Virus genome (UHGV): UHGV-0076293
Source: a virus
Direction: 5' to 3' (one strand)
DNA length: 64,000 bases
The position numbers and the translations under genes were made by a program. Positions 8,011 through 62,694 of this stretch are shown in pieces. The notes under the pieces were generated by a model. That model did not search any database. It saw only the letters and a program-made list of their open reading frames with translations, and was not told where the DNA came from. Within the stretch, counting starts at the first letter, position 1. Each line of letters opens with the position of its first letter.

Positions 8011-8065
8011 TATTTTCAGATATATATTACTTAGGTGAGAGAATTACGTAATACTCATTTATCGA
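8011..8065 (+). promoter_or_regulatory. phage promoter-like element with downstream 5'-UTR hairpin (copy 1)
   Basis: TTTTCAGATATATATTACTTAGGTGAGAG followed by an imperfect palindrome; about 25 nt upstream of an AGGAG RBS; one of five near-identical copies. Confidence 0.6.
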
Positions 8066-8087
8066 ATACCTAATTAGGAGCTATATC

Positions 8088-8231
8088 ATGATTTCTGTAA
8101 AACACAAAAAAGCTATCTTCGCTGTTGTTATCGCTGTTGTTCTGGGTTGCCTGTACCTGGATATCGATAAAGGCTACGACACTTGCATCGACAACGGTAA
8201 TTCCGTTGCGCAGTGCACTGGTCGTGGTTAA
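8088..8231 (+). CDS. small lipoprotein (47 aa)
   Basis: not in the ORF track; N-terminal K-rich plus hydrophobic signal ending in lipobox VLGC; AGGAG RBS; optimal codons; own promoter motif and terminator. Confidence 0.6.
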   Translation: MISVKHKKAIFAVVIAVVLGCLYLDIDKGYDTCIDNGNSVAQCTGRG

Positions 8232-9101: not shown

Positions 9102-9107
9102 AAGCAA

Positions 9108-9150
9108 CCCCTAATCCCGAAAAGGATTAGGGGTACACTTTATTTATTTT
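9108..9150 (+). terminator. intrinsic terminator
   Basis: CCCCTAATCC-CGAAAA-GGATTAGGGG hairpin followed by a T-rich stretch. Confidence 0.7.
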
Positions 9151-9173
9151 CGCTCTTAAAAGGAAATTGTGTC

Positions 9174-9329
9174 ATGAGAAATGTTAATGCAATGCTTAAC
9201 CAGGCATTTGTTAACCAACAGCGTTTTCAGGAACGCTTAGCACAACTTAAAACACAACACAGACCACCACAACAAAGAGTGGTTAAGAGCAAGTTCGGCG
9301 AAATGGTTTTCGAAAGAAAATCTTTCTAA
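9174..9329 (+). CDS. small basic protein (51 aa), member a of a tandem trio
   Basis: not in the ORF track; AAGGA RBS; followed by a terminator hairpin; shares FxERL and FERKS-type motifs with the next two small ORFs. Confidence 0.45.
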   Translation: MRNVNAMLNQAFVNQQRFQERLAQLKTQHRPPQQRVVKSKFGEMVFERKSF

Positions 9330-9337
9330 TAACCGTT

Positions 9338-9361
9338 AGGGGTGTGACAGCACCCCTTTTT
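9338..9361 (+). terminator. intrinsic terminator
   Basis: AGGGGTG-TGACAG-CACCCCT hairpin followed by TTTT. Confidence 0.65.
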
Positions 9362-9479
9362 ACGCTTTAACTTTTCCAAAGAGAAGTTAAAGCAGTAAGG
9401 ACTGTTGGCGCAGTCCTTACTTGTCATCGCTATTACAGAAACGTGATAGCACAATTCTAATTTTTAGAGGCGATCAGAA

Positions 9480-9647
9480 ATGTTCGACAGTATTACACAA
9501 ATTTTTAACACTACCGTAAACAATCACGCTCAGCAAGCGAAGTTTAATGAACGATTAAGGGAAGTTCAACAATTAGGATTAAATAAAAGATTAAAATCTT
9601 CCAATAATCCTCGAGTACAGATCTTCACCGAAAGGAGAAGTAACTGA
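9480..9647 (+). CDS. small basic protein (55 aa), member b of a tandem trio
   Basis: not in the ORF track; AGAGG RBS; C-terminal QLGLNKRLKSSNN...QIFTERRS closely matches member c. Confidence 0.5.
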   Translation: MFDSITQIFNTTVNNHAQQAKFNERLREVQQLGLNKRLKSSNNPRVQIFTERRSN

Positions 9648-9656
9648 TAAAAACAA

Positions 9657-9684
9657 GGTGAGCTGTTGGAGCAGCTCACCTTTT
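9657..9684 (+). terminator. intrinsic terminator
   Basis: GGTGAGCTG-TTGGAG-CAGCTCACC hairpin followed by TTTT. Confidence 0.7.
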
Positions 9685-9743
9685 ACAACGCCATTACGTT
9701 TCCGTAATGGATTTCTTTAATCACCCTACAAAGAGGGCTTACC

Positions 9744-9917
9744 ATGAACAATGGTTACTACTTTACTGACAAAATGCTTGCAGAACAATATGCAGCAAAA
9801 ACCAATTTACAGCAACGTATCTACGAGTATAGTCAACTCGGTGCGAATAAACGATTAAAACCATCAACCAACCGTTTCACACAGATAATCACTGAAAAAA
9901 GGAGTGAACGCTACTAA
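9744..9917 (+). CDS. small basic protein (57 aa), member c of a tandem trio
   Basis: not in the ORF track; AGAGGG RBS; QLGANKRLKPSTN...QIITEKRS matches member b. Confidence 0.5.
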   Translation: MNNGYYFTDKMLAEQYAAKTNLQQRIYEYSQLGANKRLKPSTNRFTQIITEKRSERY

Positions 9918-10052
9918 CTAATAAAAGGGGGTGTGCTACCACCCCCTACTTAGTTCAGCAGTTGTCTTTCGTTCATAAATATTAGATGTCTTGTTTTTTT
10001 TTGCTTTTCGGGACGCATAAGGGGTCGTAGGGGGAGCCGAAGCTCCCCAGAC

Positions 10053-19370: not shown

Positions 19371-19378
19371 TCACCACG

Positions 19379-19412
19379 CAAGGAGAGCTTCGGCTCTCCT
19401 CCTTTATTTTTA
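19379..19412 (+). terminator. intrinsic terminator
   Basis: AGGAGAGC-TTCG-GCTCTCCT followed by a T-rich stretch. Confidence 0.75.
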
Positions 19413-19458
19413 TTCCCCAATTTATTATAGCTGCCCACTATAGTGAGGGAATGAGGAA

Positions 19459-27379: not shown

Positions 27380-27383
27380 AACC

Positions 27384-27420
27384 AACCTCTACCTTCGGGT
27401 AGAGGTTTTCTTCTTTTTAT
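27384..27420 (+). terminator. intrinsic terminator
   Basis: ACCTCTACC-TTCG-GGTAGAGGT followed by a T-rich stretch. Confidence 0.75.
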
Positions 27421-27467
27421 TTTACAATTTTTGATCATACTGTGAGACTTCTAGCGAGGAGATTTAG

Positions 27468-34043: not shown

Positions 34044-34050
34044 AACCTTA

Positions 34051-34088
34051 CCCCTACCGTTAGGTAGGGGCGGGTTTCTTTTTTATCC
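34051..34088 (+). terminator. intrinsic terminator (repeat-family hairpin)
   Basis: CCTTACCCCTACC-GTTA-GGTAGGGG followed by a T-rich stretch; near-identical hairpin recurs at 34813. Confidence 0.75.
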
Positions 34089-34181
34089 TAAAATTTATTA
34101 CAACCAATAGCTATTATGTGAACGCCGGTATGGAATAAAGAAGTATCGGTTTAAATTTTTGTGCGTAAAGGTAAAACAATA

Positions 34182-34805: not shown

Positions 34806-34812
34806 TCCCTTA

Positions 34813-34848
34813 CCCCCTACCTTCGGGTAGGGGTTATTTAATTTTTTC
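34813..34848 (+). terminator. intrinsic terminator (repeat-family hairpin)
   Basis: CCCTTACCCCCTACC-TTCG-GGTAGGGG followed by a T-rich stretch. Confidence 0.75.
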
Positions 34849-34890
34849 TCAGATATATATTACCTTAGTGAGATTACACAGTAATCACTT
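34843..34890 (+). promoter_or_regulatory. phage promoter-like element with downstream 5'-UTR hairpin (copy 2)
   Basis: TTTTTTCTCAGATATATATTACCTTAGTGAGA followed by an inverted repeat (TTAC...GTAATCAC). Confidence 0.6.
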
Positions 34891-34923
34891 TACGACTTGT
34901 TCTACAGATTAGGATTAATTATC

Positions 34924-35283
34924 ATGGCTTACAATCACAACTCTATTGTTTTAGCAAAACGTAAATTCGGTCTTCATCTTTCTTACGTGATTCGTCATTT
35001 GACAGCGAAAGACATTACGCAGCGTGAACTTGCCCAGCTTGCGAAAGTTTCACAACCGGTTATCTCATCTATTAAGAACGATCGCAGCGAACGCCTGAGT
35101 CTCCCAATAATGATGAAGGTTGCTGATGCGATTCGTCTGAAATATCAGATTACGTTTAATTCTGTTAAAGGGCGTTGCTCAGTAACGGTTCACGTAGAGT
35201 CTGCGTTGGACTACGTTGCAAATACGTCCCTTAAACGTACAGCGAAGAATATTCGTTTTGTTACTAACAGCGCAACACACTAA
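34924..35283 (+). CDS. XRE-family helix-turn-helix DNA-binding protein
   Basis: ITQRELAQLAKVSQPVISSIKN is a canonical HTH; first ATG (track starts at a TTG at 34897); directly downstream of promoter motif copy 2. Confidence 0.65.
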   Translation: MAYNHNSIVLAKRKFGLHLSYVIRHLTAKDITQRELAQLAKVSQPVISSIKNDRSERLSLPIMMKVADAIRLKYQITFNSVKGRCSVTVHVESALDYVANTSLKRTAKNIRFVTNSATH

Positions 35284-35304: not shown

Positions 35305-35988
35305 ATGGCACCGAAAACTAAGAAAACTGAAGTTAAAGAAACTGTAGAAAAACCGGTTGATGCTAAGGAAGCAGAAGTTAAGCAGACTGAGCCTAGCAAG
35401 AAGCTTGCGCTTATGCCGCCTGCCACAGAAATACACGGGGATAAAATCTTAAGTTACACTCCGCGTGCGAGTTTAACGATCGATATTTACCATTACCCGG
35501 TATTCGACTTGTACACGCTTGTCTGTCGACTCGACGATGAGGTACTGGCAGTCGTTCCTGGTATCCACAAAGAAAAACTGCTTACGGGTTCAGTCATTAG
35601 CGAGATTTTCCTGCGCTTGATGTTTAAATCAGACGATAAGAGGATCAGCCAGATTGCTAGTAAATTGGCTGACTTCTTTGTTGAGGCTTCAACGTGGTTA
35701 GGCTTTCACCCAACGGCTTATTTCATTTTCGACACCAAAATGTTGTATGCTGAAATGGGCGATAGTGTTAAGTATCCTATCTTACTTAATGAAGAAGTCG
35801 TTCCGTTTTCCCTTTCCAGTCCTAACAAACATCTTCGCTTTCATCCGGCGTTAGAAAGCCTGATCGAATACCAACGGTTGGAAAAATATTACGCTTATCA
35901 TCGCATGTTCTTTGAGCTTCTGCGTGATAAATTAAGAGGCAAAGTTCCAGATTCTAGTGTATCGTTCACTAGTTCTAAGCTTTGGTAG
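35305..35988 (+). CDS. hypothetical protein (227 aa)
   Basis: AAGGAG RBS; Lys/Glu-rich N-terminus. Confidence 0.7.
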   Translation: MAPKTKKTEVKETVEKPVDAKEAEVKQTEPSKKLALMPPATEIHGDKILSYTPRASLTIDIYHYPVFDLYTLVCRLDDEVLAVVPGIHKEKLLTGSVISEIFLRLMFKSDDKRISQIASKLADFFVEASTWLGFHPTAYFIFDTKMLYAEMGDSVKYPILLNEEVVPFSLSSPNKHLRFHPALESLIEYQRLEKYYAYHRMFFELLRDKLRGKVPDSSVSFTSSKLW

Positions 35989-35997
35989 TTTGTAACA

Positions 35998-36028
35998 AAC
36001 AGGGAGCTTCGGCTCCCTTTTTCTTTTT
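35998..36028 (+). terminator. intrinsic terminator
   Basis: AGGGAGC-TTCG-GCTCCCT followed by a T-rich stretch. Confidence 0.8.
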
Positions 36029-36074
36029 ACAACTTTTTCTTTTGTTGTGAGGAAAGCCGATAAGGAGTATTAAA

Positions 36075-37061
36075 ATGGTATATCGTAAAACGATAGAAAG
36101 AACCTCTTCTGATTTAACAGTAGGACGCTTAGCCCGTAGAGATATTCGCAATCCTCAACTTCAGGCATGTTTAATGGGTCCTAACGGTGCGGTGATTCGT
36201 GAAGCACTGTGTAATACCGAGCTGAATACGTTCTCTTTACAAAAAGGAAAAACAATCCAAGGGTTTATCATCACAAAACACATTTACGGTGATCCAACGT
36301 TACACTGCTTGTATATGCACGAAATTGTACCAGGCTGTTTGAACAAACTGAGTCTTCTATTGGTACTTGACTATACGGGTTTTACGTACCTTAACCGAAT
36401 TGCCAGAGGCGTGGAAGAAATTGCTGAGCTTAACGATTTAGGGTTTAGACATACCCACACAGCATATCGTTTAGGTACACGTACGCTATCGGATGTCACT
36501 TTACCGACGAACGTGAAGAACGTCTCCGGCGACTTCTATAAAGACTTAACCGGAGCACAACGTGAGCAGCTCATGACATTGTTTGGCACTAGTGTCGTTG
36601 AAAATATCAATGCTGACCCTGTAACGCGTTCTCGACAAATAATGCCGCAAGTTGAAACATTGGTGGAGTTAGTGCGGCACGTCAATCACTACACTTACGT
36701 TTGGATGGGCGGTAATGACGTTGTGGGTGTGGTGCAAGTTAAATCACGTAATCTTAGTGAGTGCGAACTAAAAGCCATTGCGGTAAGTGAATCACACCGG
36801 GGCCGTGGGATTGGGCGTGCGTTGCTGTATCGTGCTTTACAGATTGCATCGACAACAGCGGCACCATTAGAAATAGGGTGTTACAATAACAATTCAGCAT
36901 TTAGACACCTGGCTGTAGATTTGTTTAAATTCCGTCCCTACGAGTACGAATTTGTTTTAGTGCGCGACGACGATGTCGTCAGTTGGGAGCGTCGGAAAAA
37001 CCGCGTCGCGTTAGTGTTAGGCGACGAAATGTCAACGTTACAAGGCGGAATTAATGCATAA
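36075..37061 (+). CDS. two-domain protein with C-terminal GNAT acetyltransferase fold
   Basis: C-terminal AVSESHRGRGIGRALLYRAL (GNAT motif A); about 200-aa N-terminal domain of unknown function; overlaps the Dam start. Confidence 0.6.
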   Translation: MVYRKTIERTSSDLTVGRLARRDIRNPQLQACLMGPNGAVIREALCNTELNTFSLQKGKTIQGFIITKHIYGDPTLHCLYMHEIVPGCLNKLSLLLVLDYTGFTYLNRIARGVEEIAELNDLGFRHTHTAYRLGTRTLSDVTLPTNVKNVSGDFYKDLTGAQREQLMTLFGTSVVENINADPVTRSRQIMPQVETLVELVRHVNHYTYVWMGGNDVVGVVQVKSRNLSECELKAIAVSESHRGRGIGRALLYRALQIASTTAAPLEIGCYNNNSAFRHLAVDLFKFRPYEYEFVLVRDDDVVSWERRKNRVALVLGDEMSTLQGGINA

Positions 37062-37869
37062 ACCAATTATAAAGTGGATGGGTGGCAAATCGCGGATCAT
37101 CGACACCTTACTACAAGTCTTACCTGAACGTACAACATTCGTTGAACCGTTTGTTGGTGCAGGGTCGGTGTTTTTGAACACACGTTATAAACGTTACATT
37201 CTTGCTGACTCTAACCCTGACTTAATACAGTTGCTGAACGTGGCGAAAGACCAACCTGAAGAACTTATCTTAAAGTCGAAACCGCTATTCGAAGACGGTA
37301 ACGATTGTATTAAGTATATGGAGAGACGAGAACTGTTTAATCGCGAAACGGATATGGCTCCGTTAGACCGTGCTGCAATGTTTCTGTACTTAATGCGTCA
37401 CGGTTTTAACGGGATGTGTCGTTACAACGGCAGCGGGGGGTTTAACGTTCCGTTTGGTCGCTATCCTAACGGTGTGTATTACCCGTTAGAAGAGATTCGT
37501 GGTTGGGCTAAACGTTGTCAAGAACCGGAATACTTAGAAATTGTTTGTGAAGATTTCCGAACAGTTTTAGAGCGTACACCGGAAGACAGCGTGATTTACG
37601 CAGACCCACCTTATATACCGCTCTCAGAGACCGCTAAACACGCCCAATACCATCGGAAGGAGTTTTCCCAGGCTGACCATCGGGAACTCGCCAGAGCGCT
37701 GTTTAAGCAGGTTGAGAAGGGGAATAGCGTTGTGTTGTCCAATGCAGATACGTTACTAACGCGTGAGATTTATTACGGGTTCGAATGGCGTTCTGTGGAA
37801 GTAGGGCGGTATATGGGTGCATCGGGCGCTGCTCGTAAAACGGTAACGGAATTGTTAGGAGTGCTCTAA
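37054..37869 (+). CDS. dam: Dam-type DNA N6-adenine methyltransferase
   Basis: KWMGGK, VEPFVGAGSVFLNT, YILADSN and catalytic DPPY motifs match E. coli/T4 Dam almost residue for residue. Confidence 0.9.
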   Translation: MHKPIIKWMGGKSRIIDTLLQVLPERTTFVEPFVGAGSVFLNTRYKRYILADSNPDLIQLLNVAKDQPEELILKSKPLFEDGNDCIKYMERRELFNRETDMAPLDRAAMFLYLMRHGFNGMCRYNGSGGFNVPFGRYPNGVYYPLEEIRGWAKRCQEPEYLEIVCEDFRTVLERTPEDSVIYADPPYIPLSETAKHAQYHRKEFSQADHRELARALFKQVEKGNSVVLSNADTLLTREIYYGFEWRSVEVGRYMGASGAARKTVTELLGVL

Positions 37870-39879: not shown

Positions 39880-39920
39880 AATTTAAGATATATTTCATCT
39901 ATGTGAGAATTCTCACTTAA
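39880..39920 (+). promoter_or_regulatory. phage promoter-like element with downstream 5'-UTR hairpin (copy 3, variant)
   Basis: AAGATATATTTCATCTATGTGAGAATTCTCAC; perfect GTGAGAA/TTCTCAC palindrome. Confidence 0.5.
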
Positions 39921-50815: not shown

Positions 50816-50825
50816 GGGGGGGGGG
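50816..50825. repeat. poly-G tract (G10) inside a GC hairpin
   Basis: homopolymer GGGGGGGGGG pairing with a downstream C6 run. Confidence 0.9.
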
Positions 50826-50853: not shown

Positions 50854-50862
50854 GGGGGGGGG
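50854..50862. repeat. poly-G tract (G9) forming the ribosome-binding region of the gene at 50865
   Basis: GGGGGGGGG ends 2 nt before the ATG. Confidence 0.9.
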
Positions 50863-51405: not shown

Positions 51406-51415
51406 GGGGGGGGGG
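51406..51415. repeat. poly-G tract (G10)
   Basis: homopolymer about 55 nt upstream of the gene at 51471. Confidence 0.9.
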
Positions 51416-54736: not shown

Positions 54737-54782
54737 TCAGATATATATTACCTAGAGGAGAGTGAAATTTACATTCACTCCA
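54731..54782 (+). promoter_or_regulatory. phage promoter-like element with downstream 5'-UTR hairpin (copy 4)
   Basis: TTTTTTCTCAGATATATATTACCTAGAGGAGAGTGAA followed by an inverted repeat ending TTCACTCC. Confidence 0.6.
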
Positions 54783-59118: not shown

Positions 59119-59170
59119 TAATTTCAGATATATATTACCTAGGTGAGAGTTCAGTTACTCTCACTTAACC
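59119..59170 (+). promoter_or_regulatory. phage promoter-like element with downstream 5'-UTR hairpin (copy 5)
   Basis: ATTTCAGATATATATTACCTAGGTGAGAGT-TCAGT-TACTCTCAC; clean 8-bp stem. Confidence 0.65.
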
Positions 59171-59689: not shown

Positions 59690-59735
59690 ACCTAAATTAA
59701 CACTTCGACTTGTAAATCTAAAAGGAAAAATAAAA

Positions 59736-62528: not shown

Positions 62529-62535
62529 CCACTCT

Positions 62536-62580
62536 CCGCTATAGGCTTCGGTCTATAGCGGAATTAATTTTCTTTCCCTT
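62536..62580 (+). terminator. intrinsic terminator
   Basis: CCGCTATAGGC-TTCG-GTCTATAGCGG followed by a long T-rich stretch. Confidence 0.8.
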
Positions 62581-62694
62581 TTCTTTTTTGTTATTTTGAC
62601 ACCACCTTACTTACACCCTACCCGACTATTCCTATGCTGGCTGAGGGATGTAAAACGACCTCTTAAACCTTTTTACTTACTGTGAGTTAACGCG

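What the first reader, a model, noticed from the sequence alone, without database searches (positions are those of the whole stretch)
34924..35283. XRE-type HTH regulator as first gene behind a promoter motif copy
This small protein has a canonical helix-turn-helix (ITQRELAQLAKVSQPVISSIKN) and lies about 35 nt downstream of promoter motif copy 2. It is a candidate early regulator, either a repressor of host or phage genes or part of a transcriptional switch.
Basis: partly seen in the sequence, partly recalled or inferred. Interest (0 to 1): 0.35.

Follow-up and report, generated by a model that had tools for sequence, protein, structure and literature searches.

The report
Early helix-turn-helix protein of a jumbo phage
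This is a real, well-conserved small DNA-binding-type (XRE helix-turn-helix) gene that sits first behind a giant-phage early promoter; it is the counterpart of a gene already labelled 'putative transcriptional regulator' in Salmonella phage SPN3US, so it is ordinary, and nobody yet knows what DNA it binds.

Summary
ORF 34924-35283 (+) encodes a 119-aa basic protein (pI 10.4). Its residues 31-52 are the quoted HTH. Pfam HTH_37, HTH_26 and HTH_3 all pass their curated cut-offs. An AlphaFold model (pLDDT 85) matches XRE proteins by fold.

The protein is a full-length member of PHROG 7126, about 40% identical to SPN3US gp101 ('putative transcriptional regulator'). It keeps the same neighbourhood: thymidylate kinase, then HTH, then GNAT and Dam-type methylase. 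The family is seen only on ~210-270 kb jumbo-phage contigs. It is under strong purifying selection (dN/dS 0.09).

The upstream motif AGATATATATTAC-(6N)-G matches the experimentally mapped virion-RNA-polymerase early promoter consensus of jumbo phage AR9. The same motif precedes the orthologues in SPN3US and the Erskinevirus phages Asesino and phiEaH2. The gene is the first cistron of a two-gene unit bounded by terminators.

Early timing, DNA binding and any regulatory role are inferred, not shown. No operator, toxin partner or restriction enzyme was found. My leaning is that it binds DNA reachable from the cytoplasm, meaning the host chromosome. The only support is an analogy with phage RAY gp094. 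Control of phage promoters is nearly as likely.

Verdict: a new member of a known, uncharacterised family, of low to moderate interest.

The parts
34814..34846 (+). Intrinsic terminator of the upstream (thymidylate kinase) unit: stem-loop CCCCTACC-TTCG-GGTAGGGG (34814-34833) followed by a T-rich tail
   Evidence: Terminator scan; repeat family D2; sequence
34849..34869 (+). Early-promoter motif copy 2, TCAGATATATATTACCTTAGT. The AT-rich core ATATATATTAC is 34853-34863. The predicted transcription start is G34870, 6 nt after the core
   Evidence: Motif statistics. The same motif precedes the SPN3US, Asesino and phiEaH2 orthologues. There are 46 exact matches in 44 IMG/VR loci; all but one 7-kb fragment come from contigs of 107-246 kb, mostly 220-246 kb. 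The start-site position is inferred from the AR9 consensus AAATATATATTAT-(6N)-G+1 and the statement that phiKZ and phiR1-37 start 6 nt downstream (PMC5312081)
34870..34888 (+). Predicted 5'-terminal leader stem-loop, GATTAC-ACA-GTAATC (34872-34886), flanked by a possible G34870:C34888 pair
   Evidence: RNA folds of 50 motif instances. 41 distinct leaders have mean z -2.9, and 78% have z < -1.64, against 2% of control segments. Stems differ between copies but stay complementary
34911..34914 (+). Shine-Dalgarno AGGA, 9 nt before the ATG
   Evidence: Sequence; leader layout shared with the other copies
34924..35283 (+). CDS of the 119-aa XRE-family HTH protein (orthologue of SPN3US gp101, PHROG 7126), 13.4 kDa, pI 10.4
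   Evidence: Purifying selection: 0 non-synonymous against 11-12 synonymous differences to L054/L056, and dN/dS 0.09 to L014
35014..35079 (+). The helix-turn-helix itself (residues 31-52). Model helices are 33-39 and 44-51 (recognition helix). T32, A37, I47, S48 and N52 are invariant in the family; Q33 and K51 are nearly so
   Evidence: Alignment A3; AlphaFold secondary structure
35143..35265 (+). Family-specific C-terminal beta-rich part (residues about 74-114: strands 74-81, 84-91, helix 94-100, strands 101-105, 110-114). It may serve dimerisation, which is an inference
   Evidence: AlphaFold model. PDB fold matches cover only the N-terminal ~56-77 residues. Full-length fold matches come from viral proteins; those that carry a name are from jumbo phages
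35305..35988 (+). Second cistron of the unit: 227-aa ORF of unknown function. It is not conserved with the genes downstream of the orthologues in other clades
   Evidence: No Pfam, PHROG or NCBIfam hit. No significant similarity to SPN3US gp103
36001..36030 (+). Intrinsic terminator closing the two-gene unit: AGGGAGC-TTCG-GCTCCCT plus a T run
   Evidence: Terminator scan; repeat family D4

Best explanation
The gene encodes a small, very basic XRE/Cro-C1-type helix-turn-helix protein. It is the orthologue of SPN3US gp101 in an uncultured ~225-kb SPN3US-like jumbo phage of the nucleus-forming family Chimalliviridae, found in the gut and in Enterobacteriaceae samples.

It is the first cistron of a two-gene unit bounded by terminators. 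That unit is driven by an early promoter of the kind read by the injected virion RNA polymerase. The protein should therefore be made in the host cytoplasm within minutes of infection, without host RNA polymerase.

It most likely binds double-stranded DNA through helix 44-51. It probably does so as an oligomer held together by the family-specific N-terminal helix and C-terminal beta-rich part.

Phage DNA of this family is shut inside a vesicle and then a protein 'nucleus', so my leaning is that the DNA it reaches is the host chromosome, where it would silence or re-programme host transcription. The reasoning parallels Erwinia phage RAY gp094.

Shown here: the ORF, the HTH family and fold, the conservation, the synteny, the promoter motif and the unit boundaries.

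Inferred: early timing, the start site, DNA binding, oligomerisation and the target.

Sub-probabilities:
- XRE-fold nucleic-acid-binding protein expressed from an early promoter: about 0.8.
- Host chromosome as the main target: about 0.35-0.4.
For: HTH identity:
- Three Pfam XRE-type models pass their curated cut-offs.
- PHROG 7126 matches full length at 1.4e-32.
- The AlphaFold model has pLDDT 85 and pTM 0.78, with a canonical helix 2/helix 3 pair.
- Foldseek matches XRE regulators at probability ~1 and target TM-score 0.5-0.7: NE_1354 (2a6c), 2o38, C.BclI, C.AhdI, ClgR, HigA2 and HipB.
- The canonical 'TQ..LA....S...IS.I.N' signature is invariant or nearly so across 19 family members.
- pI is 10.4, with 19 K+R against 7 D+E.

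Real, selected gene:
- dN/dS is 0.09 against a 76%-identical orthologue, and there are 0 non-synonymous against 11-12 synonymous changes to closer relatives.
- The exact protein is found in 196 blocks of the public collection, on 211-226 kb contigs.

Lineage and synteny:
- 64 jumbo-phage records hold a homologue.
- Gene order matches SPN3US, Asesino and phiEaH2.
- SPN3US is a member of Chimalliviridae (bioRxiv 10.1101/2023.09.20.558163).

Early promoter:
- The motif has 0 expected by chance.
- The AT-rich core matches the mapped AR9 early consensus at 11 of 13 positions, with the same 6-nt spacing to a G (PMC5312081; PMC7598289).
- The motif sits immediately upstream of the orthologue in SPN3US and Erskinevirus. 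In Kwan, pEa_SNUABM_9 and the Aeromonas phage AhC3_1 it sits upstream of the small operon that contains the orthologue.
- No sigma-70-like site lies in the 34806-34923 spacer.

Host-DNA leaning:
- A GFP fusion of RAY gp094, an XRE protein of a nucleus-forming phage, sits on the host chromosome and not in the phage nucleus (bioRxiv 10.1101/2023.02.24.529968).
- No recurrent palindromic operator exists in these 64 kb of phage DNA.
- The likely specificity residues at the start of the recognition helix differ between clades (QPV, PSQ, TST, VAT, TSI, SSA). The early promoter is invariant across those clades, so the protein is unlikely to read the promoter core.
Against: - No experiment on any member of this family was found.
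- Early timing and the start site rest on analogy.
- RAY gp094 is not an orthologue. Only 42 HTH columns align (hhalign probability 57%), and it lacks the C-terminal part. It is a precedent, not evidence about this protein.
- The family is conserved in phages of very different hosts (Salmonella, Erwinia, Klebsiella, Stenotrophomonas, Aeromonas). A conserved phage target explains that more easily than host-specific targets do.
- Whether SPN3US-like phages keep or degrade host DNA was not established here.
- Foldseek E-values against PDB are modest (about 0.01), and the C-terminal ~45 residues have no structural match.
- The operator search used exact palindromes only, and covered only 64 kb of a genome of about 225 kb.
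Confidence: 0.55

Rival explanations
1. Phage-directed temporal regulator. The protein is imported into the early infection vesicle or the phage nucleus and binds phage DNA. There it would shut off virion-RNAP early promoters or help the non-virion RNAP at middle or late promoters, acting as an early-to-middle switch.
For: - The family is conserved across phages of unrelated hosts and always sits in an early-promoter-driven unit. That fits a target which is itself conserved in the phages.
- A comparative review notes that most jumbo phages encode their own HTH transcription factors, which may work with their RNAPs (PMC7824862).
- The leader regions of many early units share a box (TCGAC/CGACT in 12 of 44 distinct leaders against ~0.9 expected) that could be a binding site.
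Against: - No repeated palindromic operator was found in 64 kb.
- Predicted specificity residues vary between clades while the early promoter is invariant.
- The leader inverted repeats differ in sequence and loop length between copies. That fits an RNA hairpin better than a shared operator.
- Selective import into the nucleus would be required, and nothing here speaks to it.
- The one XRE protein of a chimallivirus that has been localised was on host DNA.
Confidence: 0.3
2. Antitoxin-like or decoy protein. An XRE-fold protein of the HigA2/HipB kind that acts mainly by protein-protein contact, neutralising a host toxin or abortive-infection effector early in infection, with DNA binding secondary or lost.
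For: - The best Pfam family is HTH_37, and structural neighbours include M. tuberculosis HigA2 and HipB proteins.
- Weak NCBIfam hits go to the Y4mF/HipB antitoxin models.
- Early expression suits an anti-defence role.
Against: - The NCBIfam antitoxin scores (19.4 and 14 bits) are far below their cut-offs of 71.65 and 79 bits.
- No toxin-like gene is adjacent. The downstream genes differ between clades and have no Pfam domain.
- The DNA-contacting signature of the HTH is the most conserved part of the family, and the protein is strongly basic.
- The resemblance is what any XRE domain would give.
Confidence: 0.08
3. Restriction-modification-type controller (C protein) that times expression of the nearby Dam-type DNA methyltransferase (37054-37869).
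For: - C.BclI, C.AhdI and C.Esp1396I are among the best sequence and structure matches, with 23-37% identity over ~56-65 aligned columns.
- A D12-class methylase lies 1.8 kb downstream. The HTH-methylase neighbourhood recurs in SPN3US, Asesino and phiEaH2.
Against: - There is no restriction endonuclease.
- The methylase is separated from the HTH gene by another ORF, a terminator (36001-36018) and a GNAT gene.
- The linkage is absent in Miami, Kwan and AhC3_1.
- No C-box-like repeated palindrome was found.
Confidence: 0.03

Closest known systems
SPN3US gp101 (SPN3US_0101 / ACQ60_gp165, YP_009153395) and its family, PHROG 7126 'HTH DNA binding protein'
   Same: - Full-length homology: 40% identity over 104 residues, and PHROG E 1.4e-32.
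- Same length class (108-124 aa) and same architecture (N-terminal helix, HTH, beta-rich C-terminus).
- Same neighbourhood after thymidylate kinase.
- Same early-promoter motif about 66 nt before the start codon.
   Different: - Only ~40% identical.
- The residues at the start of the recognition helix differ (SQPV against SPSQ).
- The genes that follow are unrelated.
- No member of the family has been studied experimentally, so 'known' means annotated only.
XRE/Cro-C1 HTH proteins of the HTH_37 type (NE_1354, PDB 2a6c; 2o38; HigA2; HipB)
   Same: A helical bundle with an extra N-terminal helix before the HTH. Pfam HTH_37 aligns residues 19-76 to profile positions 20-77 of 80. Foldseek probability is ~1.
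   Different: An added ~45-residue beta-rich C-terminal part has no PDB match. There is no toxin partner. The antitoxin family models score far below their cut-offs.
Erwinia phage RAY gp094 (XRE-superfamily protein of a nucleus-forming phage that coats the host nucleoid)
   Same: A small XRE-type protein encoded by a chimallivirus. It shows that such proteins can act on host DNA outside the phage nucleus.
   Different: It is not orthologous: BLASTP finds nothing, and hhalign aligns only 42 HTH columns at probability 57%. It is 96 aa without the C-terminal part and lies in a different genomic neighbourhood.
Restriction-modification controller proteins (C.BclI, C.AhdI, C.Esp1396I)
   Same: Small dimeric XRE-fold regulators. 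They show the highest local sequence identity among solved structures (up to 37%).
   Different: No endonuclease, no adjacent regulated gene and no C-box. A terminator lies between the HTH gene and the methylase.
Virion-RNAP early promoters of RNAP-encoding jumbo phages (AR9 AAATATATATTAT-(6N)-G+1; phiKZ; phiR1-37)
   Same: An extended, highly conserved AT-rich element, with a G six nucleotides downstream. It lies in front of co-directional operons, directly after terminators.
   Different: In the SPN3US-like lineage, conservation continues through CYTAGGT-GAG. The predicted transcript begins with a stem-loop whose sequence varies but whose pairing is kept. I did not find this described in the papers I read.

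Membership tests
XRE / Cro-C1-type HTH superfamily (Pfam HTH_3, HTH_26, HTH_37) | Profile match above the curated gathering score | tested here: met
   HTH_37 31.3 bits (cut-off 27), HTH_26 29.2 (22), HTH_3 26.7 (23)
XRE / Cro-C1-type HTH superfamily (Pfam HTH_3, HTH_26, HTH_37) | Helical-bundle fold with a helix 2 - turn - helix 3 DNA-reading unit | tested here: met
   AlphaFold model pLDDT 85 with helices 33-39 and 44-51. Foldseek matches solved XRE regulators at probability ~1, rmsd 2.5-3.7 A over 56-74 columns. This is a prediction, not a solved structure
XRE / Cro-C1-type HTH superfamily (Pfam HTH_3, HTH_26, HTH_37) | Sequence-specific binding to double-stranded DNA | not testable with these tools
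   Only indirect support: pI 10.4 and a conserved HTH signature. No operator was found
SPN3US gp101 family (PHROG 7126) | Full-length profile match covering the N-helix, the HTH and the C-terminal part | tested here: met
   PHROG 7126 E 1.4e-32, residues 1-115 on profile positions 2-117 of 120. The family profile finds 41 clusters at E <= 1e-10, mostly full-length proteins of about 110-130 aa, with some longer multi-HTH proteins among them
SPN3US gp101 family (PHROG 7126) | Jumbo-phage genomic context: after thymidylate kinase, inside an early-promoter-driven unit | tested here: met
   Synteny with SPN3US, Asesino and phiEaH2. The motif lies upstream in those phages, or upstream of the small operon in Kwan, pEa_SNUABM_9 and AhC3_1. 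All named cluster members are jumbo-phage proteins
Type II toxin-antitoxin antitoxins (HigA2 / HipB / Y4mF) | Adjacent cognate toxin gene in the same operon | tested here: not met
   The downstream ORF (227 aa) and the downstream genes of seven orthologues have no Pfam domain and are not conserved with one another. The upstream gene is thymidylate kinase
Type II toxin-antitoxin antitoxins (HigA2 / HipB / Y4mF) | Match to the curated antitoxin family models | tested here: not met
   TIGR03070 19.4 bits (cut-off 71.65); HipB NF007271 14 bits (cut-off 79)
Restriction-modification controller (C) proteins | Located immediately upstream of, or overlapping, a restriction endonuclease gene, with a C-box operator | tested here: not met
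   No endonuclease was detected. The methylase is 1.8 kb away, beyond a terminator. No repeated palindrome was found
Lambda-type CI/Cro lysis-lysogeny switch | Divergently transcribed repressor pair sharing repeated operators | tested here: not met
   All neighbouring genes are co-directional on the + strand. No repeated operator-like palindromes were found. The genome type is a phiKZ-like lytic jumbo phage
Virion-RNAP early promoters of jumbo phages | Highly conserved, extended AT-rich element, over-represented in front of operons and restricted to RNAP-encoding jumbo phages | tested here: met
   4 strong and 1 weak copies against 0 expected. Each follows a terminator. There are 46 exact matches in 44 IMG/VR loci; all but one 7-kb fragment come from contigs of 107-246 kb, mostly 220-246 kb
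Virion-RNAP early promoters of jumbo phages | Transcription starts ~6 nt downstream of the element, within minutes of infection and without new protein synthesis | not testable with these tools
   Inferred from AR9, phiKZ and phiR1-37 (PMC5312081). No transcript data for this phage or for SPN3US were found

The most novel reading that the evidence does not exclude
The gp101-type protein could be the first dedicated transcription factor identified for the non-canonical multisubunit RNA polymerases of nucleus-forming phages. In that reading it is imported to the phage DNA and binds the conserved early leaders, switching off virion-RNAP transcription. Alternatively, it could be a lineage-wide host-nucleoid silencer with a new beta-rich oligomerisation module.
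Probability: 0.12. Interest if true: 0.6.

Novelty: new member of a known kind. Interest (0 to 1): 0.25.

Why it matters
How nucleus-forming jumbo phages time their early, middle and late genes is still unclear. No sequence-specific factor working with their own RNA polymerases is known. It is also unknown what cytoplasm-made DNA-binding proteins do when the phage genome is sealed away.

A conserved, early-expressed HTH protein in the SPN3US lineage is a reasonable entry point to both questions, and SPN3US is a culturable phage with genetics. As it stands, though, this finding only re-discovers a gene that public records already label 'putative transcriptional regulator'. It adds context but no function.

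Tried and rejected
- Close relatives in GenBank phages: megablast of 2.5 kb found only a 66-nt match, which is the promoter itself, in two Salmonella jumbo phages. The phage is therefore not in that collection.
- Toxin-antitoxin reading: rejected. There is no partner gene, and the family models score far below their cut-offs.
- R-M controller reading: rejected. There is no endonuclease, and a terminator lies in between.
- Orthology with the only localised chimallivirus XRE protein, RAY gp094: rejected.
- Operator hunt: exact inverted repeats with 5-7-nt half-sites and spacers of 0-12 across the window recovered only terminator stems.
- Fused-domain clues: longer relatives from the 1.84-billion-protein search carry only HTH domains.
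- Literature: searches for SPN3US gp101, Chimalliviridae with helix-turn-helix, and jumbo phage with XRE gave no functional data on this family. One search was badly specified and wasted.
- tRNA and Rfam scans of the window: nothing found.
- Not attempted: I did not model the C-terminal part alone or a homodimer. The structure tool takes single chains, and a 45-residue fragment would give an uninformative fold search.

Full report
**1. The observation**

AGGA at 34911-34914 sits 9 nt before the ATG.

The mechanical ORF list extends to a TTG at 34897. Every orthologue begins M-(A)-[RY]-[FY]-[KNQ]-H, as the ATG product does, and the TTG has no ribosome-binding site. The ATG start is therefore preferred.

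The quoted HTH string is residues 31-52. Three XRE-type Pfam models pass their curated thresholds:
- HTH_37: 31.3 bits against 27, E 1.8e-7.
- HTH_26: 29.2 bits against 22.
- HTH_3: 26.7 bits against 23.

PHROG 7126 ('HTH DNA binding protein') matches the whole length at E 1.4e-32.

**2. The promoter motif**

TCAGATATATATTACCTAGGTGAGAG with up to 3 mismatches occurs at 8016, 34849, 54737 and 59124, all on the + strand. None is expected in 100 shuffles. A weaker copy is at 39886. The copy at 34849 is the second.

Each copy lies just after an intrinsic terminator and just before a gene.

The core AGATATATATTAC-(6N)-G closely resembles the experimentally mapped early consensus of jumbo phage AR9, AAATATATATTAT-(6N)-G+1. 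[quoted passage not shown] A review says that such motifs can be found bioinformatically in front of presumed early operons of every RNAP-encoding jumbo phage (PMC7598289).

By that analogy the start site here is G34870 and the leader is 54 nt long. From the end of the repeat family the distance is 49 nt.

No sigma-70-like site lies in the spacer.

The unit has this layout:
- terminator, 34814-34833;
- promoter;
- HTH gene;
- a 227-aa ORF, 35305-35988;
- terminator, 36001-36018.

**3. What genome this is**

The window carries phiKZ-type genes: a major head protein, virion structural proteins, a DnaB-like helicase and a polymerase. An internal-head-protein-like gene sits a few kilobases upstream of the HTH gene; its product has a weak phiKZ_IP Pfam hit and aligns with the SPN3US 'internal head protein' gene.

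Around the HTH gene the order is the same as in Salmonella phage SPN3US, and nearly the same in Erwinia phages Asesino and phiEaH2:
- internal head protein;
- acetyltransferase;
- hypothetical genes;
- thymidylate kinase;
- HTH;
- hypothetical gene(s);
- GNAT;
- D12 adenine methylase.

At the DNA level nothing in the GenBank phage collection is close. The only megablast match is the 66-nt promoter region.

The exact protein is nevertheless found in 196 blocks of the public assembly collection. These include a human gut metagenome and assemblies labelled Salmonella or E. coli, on contigs of 211-226 kb.

The window therefore comes from an uncultured SPN3US-like jumbo phage of about 225 kb. SPN3US is counted among the Chimalliviridae.

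**4. The protein family**

tblastn finds homologues in 64 phage records. All listed records are jumbo phages of about 197-257 kb, infecting Erwinia, Salmonella, Klebsiella, Aeromonas, Stenotrophomonas, Raoultella and Proteus, at roughly 33-44% identity. A second query extends this to PhiEaH1, RisingSun/Joad and others.

A profile search of 1.84 billion representative proteins gives 41 clusters at E <= 1e-10. Most are proteins of about 110-130 aa matched over most of their length. A minority are longer proteins with several HTH-only matches, and below that threshold the hits are generic XRE domains. Every named member of the top clusters is a jumbo-phage protein.

The SPN3US member is SPN3US_0101, 'putative transcriptional regulator'. 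I found no experimental work on it.

The gene is under strong purifying selection:
- 0 non-synonymous against 11-12 synonymous differences to two relatives;
- dN/dS 0.09 to a 76%-identical orthologue.

**5. Structure**

The AlphaFold model built on a 19-sequence alignment has mean pLDDT 85 and pTM 0.78. Its elements are:
- a long N-terminal helix, residues 5-29;
- the HTH helices, 33-39 and 44-51;
- a helix at 60-69;
- a beta-rich C-terminal part: strands 74-81 and 84-91, helix 94-100, strands 101-105 and 110-114.

Against the PDB, only the N-terminal 56-77 residues find partners, and all the good ones are XRE-fold proteins. They include NE_1354 (2a6c), 2o38, the R-M controllers C.BclI, C.AhdI and C.Esp1396I, ClgR, M. 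tuberculosis HigA2 and HipB. Probability is about 1, and E-values are modest at about 0.01.

T32, A37, I47, S48 and N52 are invariant in the family, and Q33 and K51 nearly so. The first residues of the recognition helix vary by clade. The protein has pI 10.4.

**6. Context in relatives**

- In SPN3US, Asesino and phiEaH2 the identical motif sits 66 nt before the orthologue's ATG.
- In Kwan and pEa_SNUABM_9 a variant motif (…GATAGATATTAT…GTGA) follows the thymidylate-kinase terminator, and the HTH gene is the third gene behind it.
- In Aeromonas phage AhC3_1 a similar variant lies two genes upstream.
- In Klebsiella phage Miami a possible variant (CGATATTACC) is directly upstream. I did not verify it.

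The genes that follow the HTH gene are unrelated between clades and carry no known domains.

**7. How it most likely works**

Shown here: an XRE-fold, strongly basic, selectively maintained protein encoded first in a terminator-bounded unit behind an early-class promoter.

Inferred: it is made in the cytoplasm within minutes by translation of a vRNAP transcript. It binds DNA through helix 44-51. It oligomerises through its family-specific parts.

The target is the open point. In this phage family the genome sits in a membrane vesicle and then in a protein shell, while translation is cytoplasmic (PMC12931631). The one XRE protein of a nucleus-forming phage that has been localised, RAY gp094, coats the host chromosome like H-NS.

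I therefore lean to the host chromosome as the target, at about 0.35-0.4.

RAY gp094 is not an orthologue. The wide host range of the family fits a conserved phage target at least as well. The phage-directed temporal-regulator reading is therefore almost as likely, at about 0.3.

Two observations argue against the protein reading the early promoter core itself. The promoter is invariant across clades whose recognition-helix residues differ. The inverted repeats after the promoters differ in sequence and loop length.

The antitoxin and R-M controller readings fail their defining features.

**8. Comparison with what is known, and novelty**

This is a new, ~40%-identical member of an already annotated but uncharacterised jumbo-phage family. 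It belongs to the XRE superfamily and sits behind a promoter class that is known in kind.

Nothing about it would surprise a specialist. Its value is as a handle on the unanswered question of what HTH proteins do in phages that bring their own RNA polymerases and hide their DNA.

Interest 0.25.

**9. Side observations**

These are listed separately. The most substantial is that the predicted early transcripts of this phage lineage begin with a stem-loop whose pairing is conserved while its sequence changes. Across 41 distinct leaders the mean z is -2.9, and 78% have z < -1.64, against 2% of controls.

Noticed in passing
window 8037-8062, 34870-34888, 39905-39918, 54758-54781, 59145-59162; also loci L008-L051: Directly at the predicted +1 of every early-promoter copy there is a short stem-loop. 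Its sequence differs between copies but stays complementary, for example GAGAGTTA..TAACTCTT, GAGCGTTA..TAACGCTT, GAGATTAC..GTAATCTC and GAGCATTGA..TCAATGCTT. Across 41 distinct leaders from about a dozen jumbo-phage genomes the mean fold z-score is -2.9, and 78% have z < -1.64, against 2% for control segments. It could be a 5' mRNA-stabilising or export signal, or a DNA-level promoter element. I did not find it described in the papers I read.
   Followed up: partly
window 34890-34900 (TTACGACTTGT), 8062-8070, 59706-59716; leaders in L008-L051: Between the leader hairpin and the Shine-Dalgarno, many early leaders share a box of the form (A)TCGAC(T/C)(A/T)T or CGACTTGT, followed by TTAACC. TCGAC/CGACT occurs in 12 of 44 distinct leaders against ~0.9 expected. 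Orthologous copies inflate the count. Its function is unknown; it could be a translation element or a protein-binding site.
   Followed up: partly
window 34849-34903 compared with L011:5072-5152, L041:4098-4175 and L014:3644-3735: The promoter-plus-leader of the HTH gene is 85-86% identical to one that precedes an unrelated gene in related ~220-225 kb contigs. One of those contigs is the one that holds L014, and there the true HTH orthologue carries a different leader hairpin. Promoter-leader cassettes therefore seem to be exchanged between genes.
   Followed up: partly
window 19371-19458, 27380-27467, 34044-34160, 35989-36074, 62529-62694: Several other intergenic regions share a layout: terminator, T-run, then 20-40 nt ending in T(A/G)TGTGAG or TATGTGA just before the ribosome-binding site. 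Examples are CATACTGTGAGAC, TTTGTTGTGAGGA, CTATAGTGAGGG, CTTACTGTGAGTT and ATTATGTGAAC. This may be a second (middle or late) promoter class, comparable to the phiKZ late TATG element.
   Followed up: no
window 50816-50825, 50854-50862, 51406-51415: Three runs of 9-10 G lie in two neighbouring intergenic regions, one inside a hairpin (GTAGGGGGGGGGGAGGTCACCCCCCTAC). Long homopolymer runs are unusual in this otherwise AT-leaning intergenic DNA. They could be slippage-prone or structure-forming.
   Followed up: no
window 8088-8231: The first gene behind early-promoter copy 1 is a 47-codon ORF (MISVKHKKAIFAVVIAVVLGCLYLD...). It has a signal-peptide-like start and an LGC lipobox-like motif, and is followed by its own terminator. 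It may be a small early lipoprotein.
   Followed up: no
window 9102-10052: A 951-nt stretch has no ORF of 70 or more codons. It lies between a + strand gene and the - strand DnaB-like helicase and contains two GGGGTG-N6-CACCCC hairpins. No tRNA or Rfam family was found.
   Followed up: partly
whole window; loci L053-L056: The phage is absent from the GenBank phage collection at the DNA level. Its HTH protein nevertheless occurs, with exactly the same sequence, in 196 blocks of public assemblies. These include a human gut metagenome and Salmonella/E. coli-labelled assemblies, on 211-226 kb contigs. It appears to be a widespread uncultured SPN3US-like jumbo phage.
   Followed up: partly
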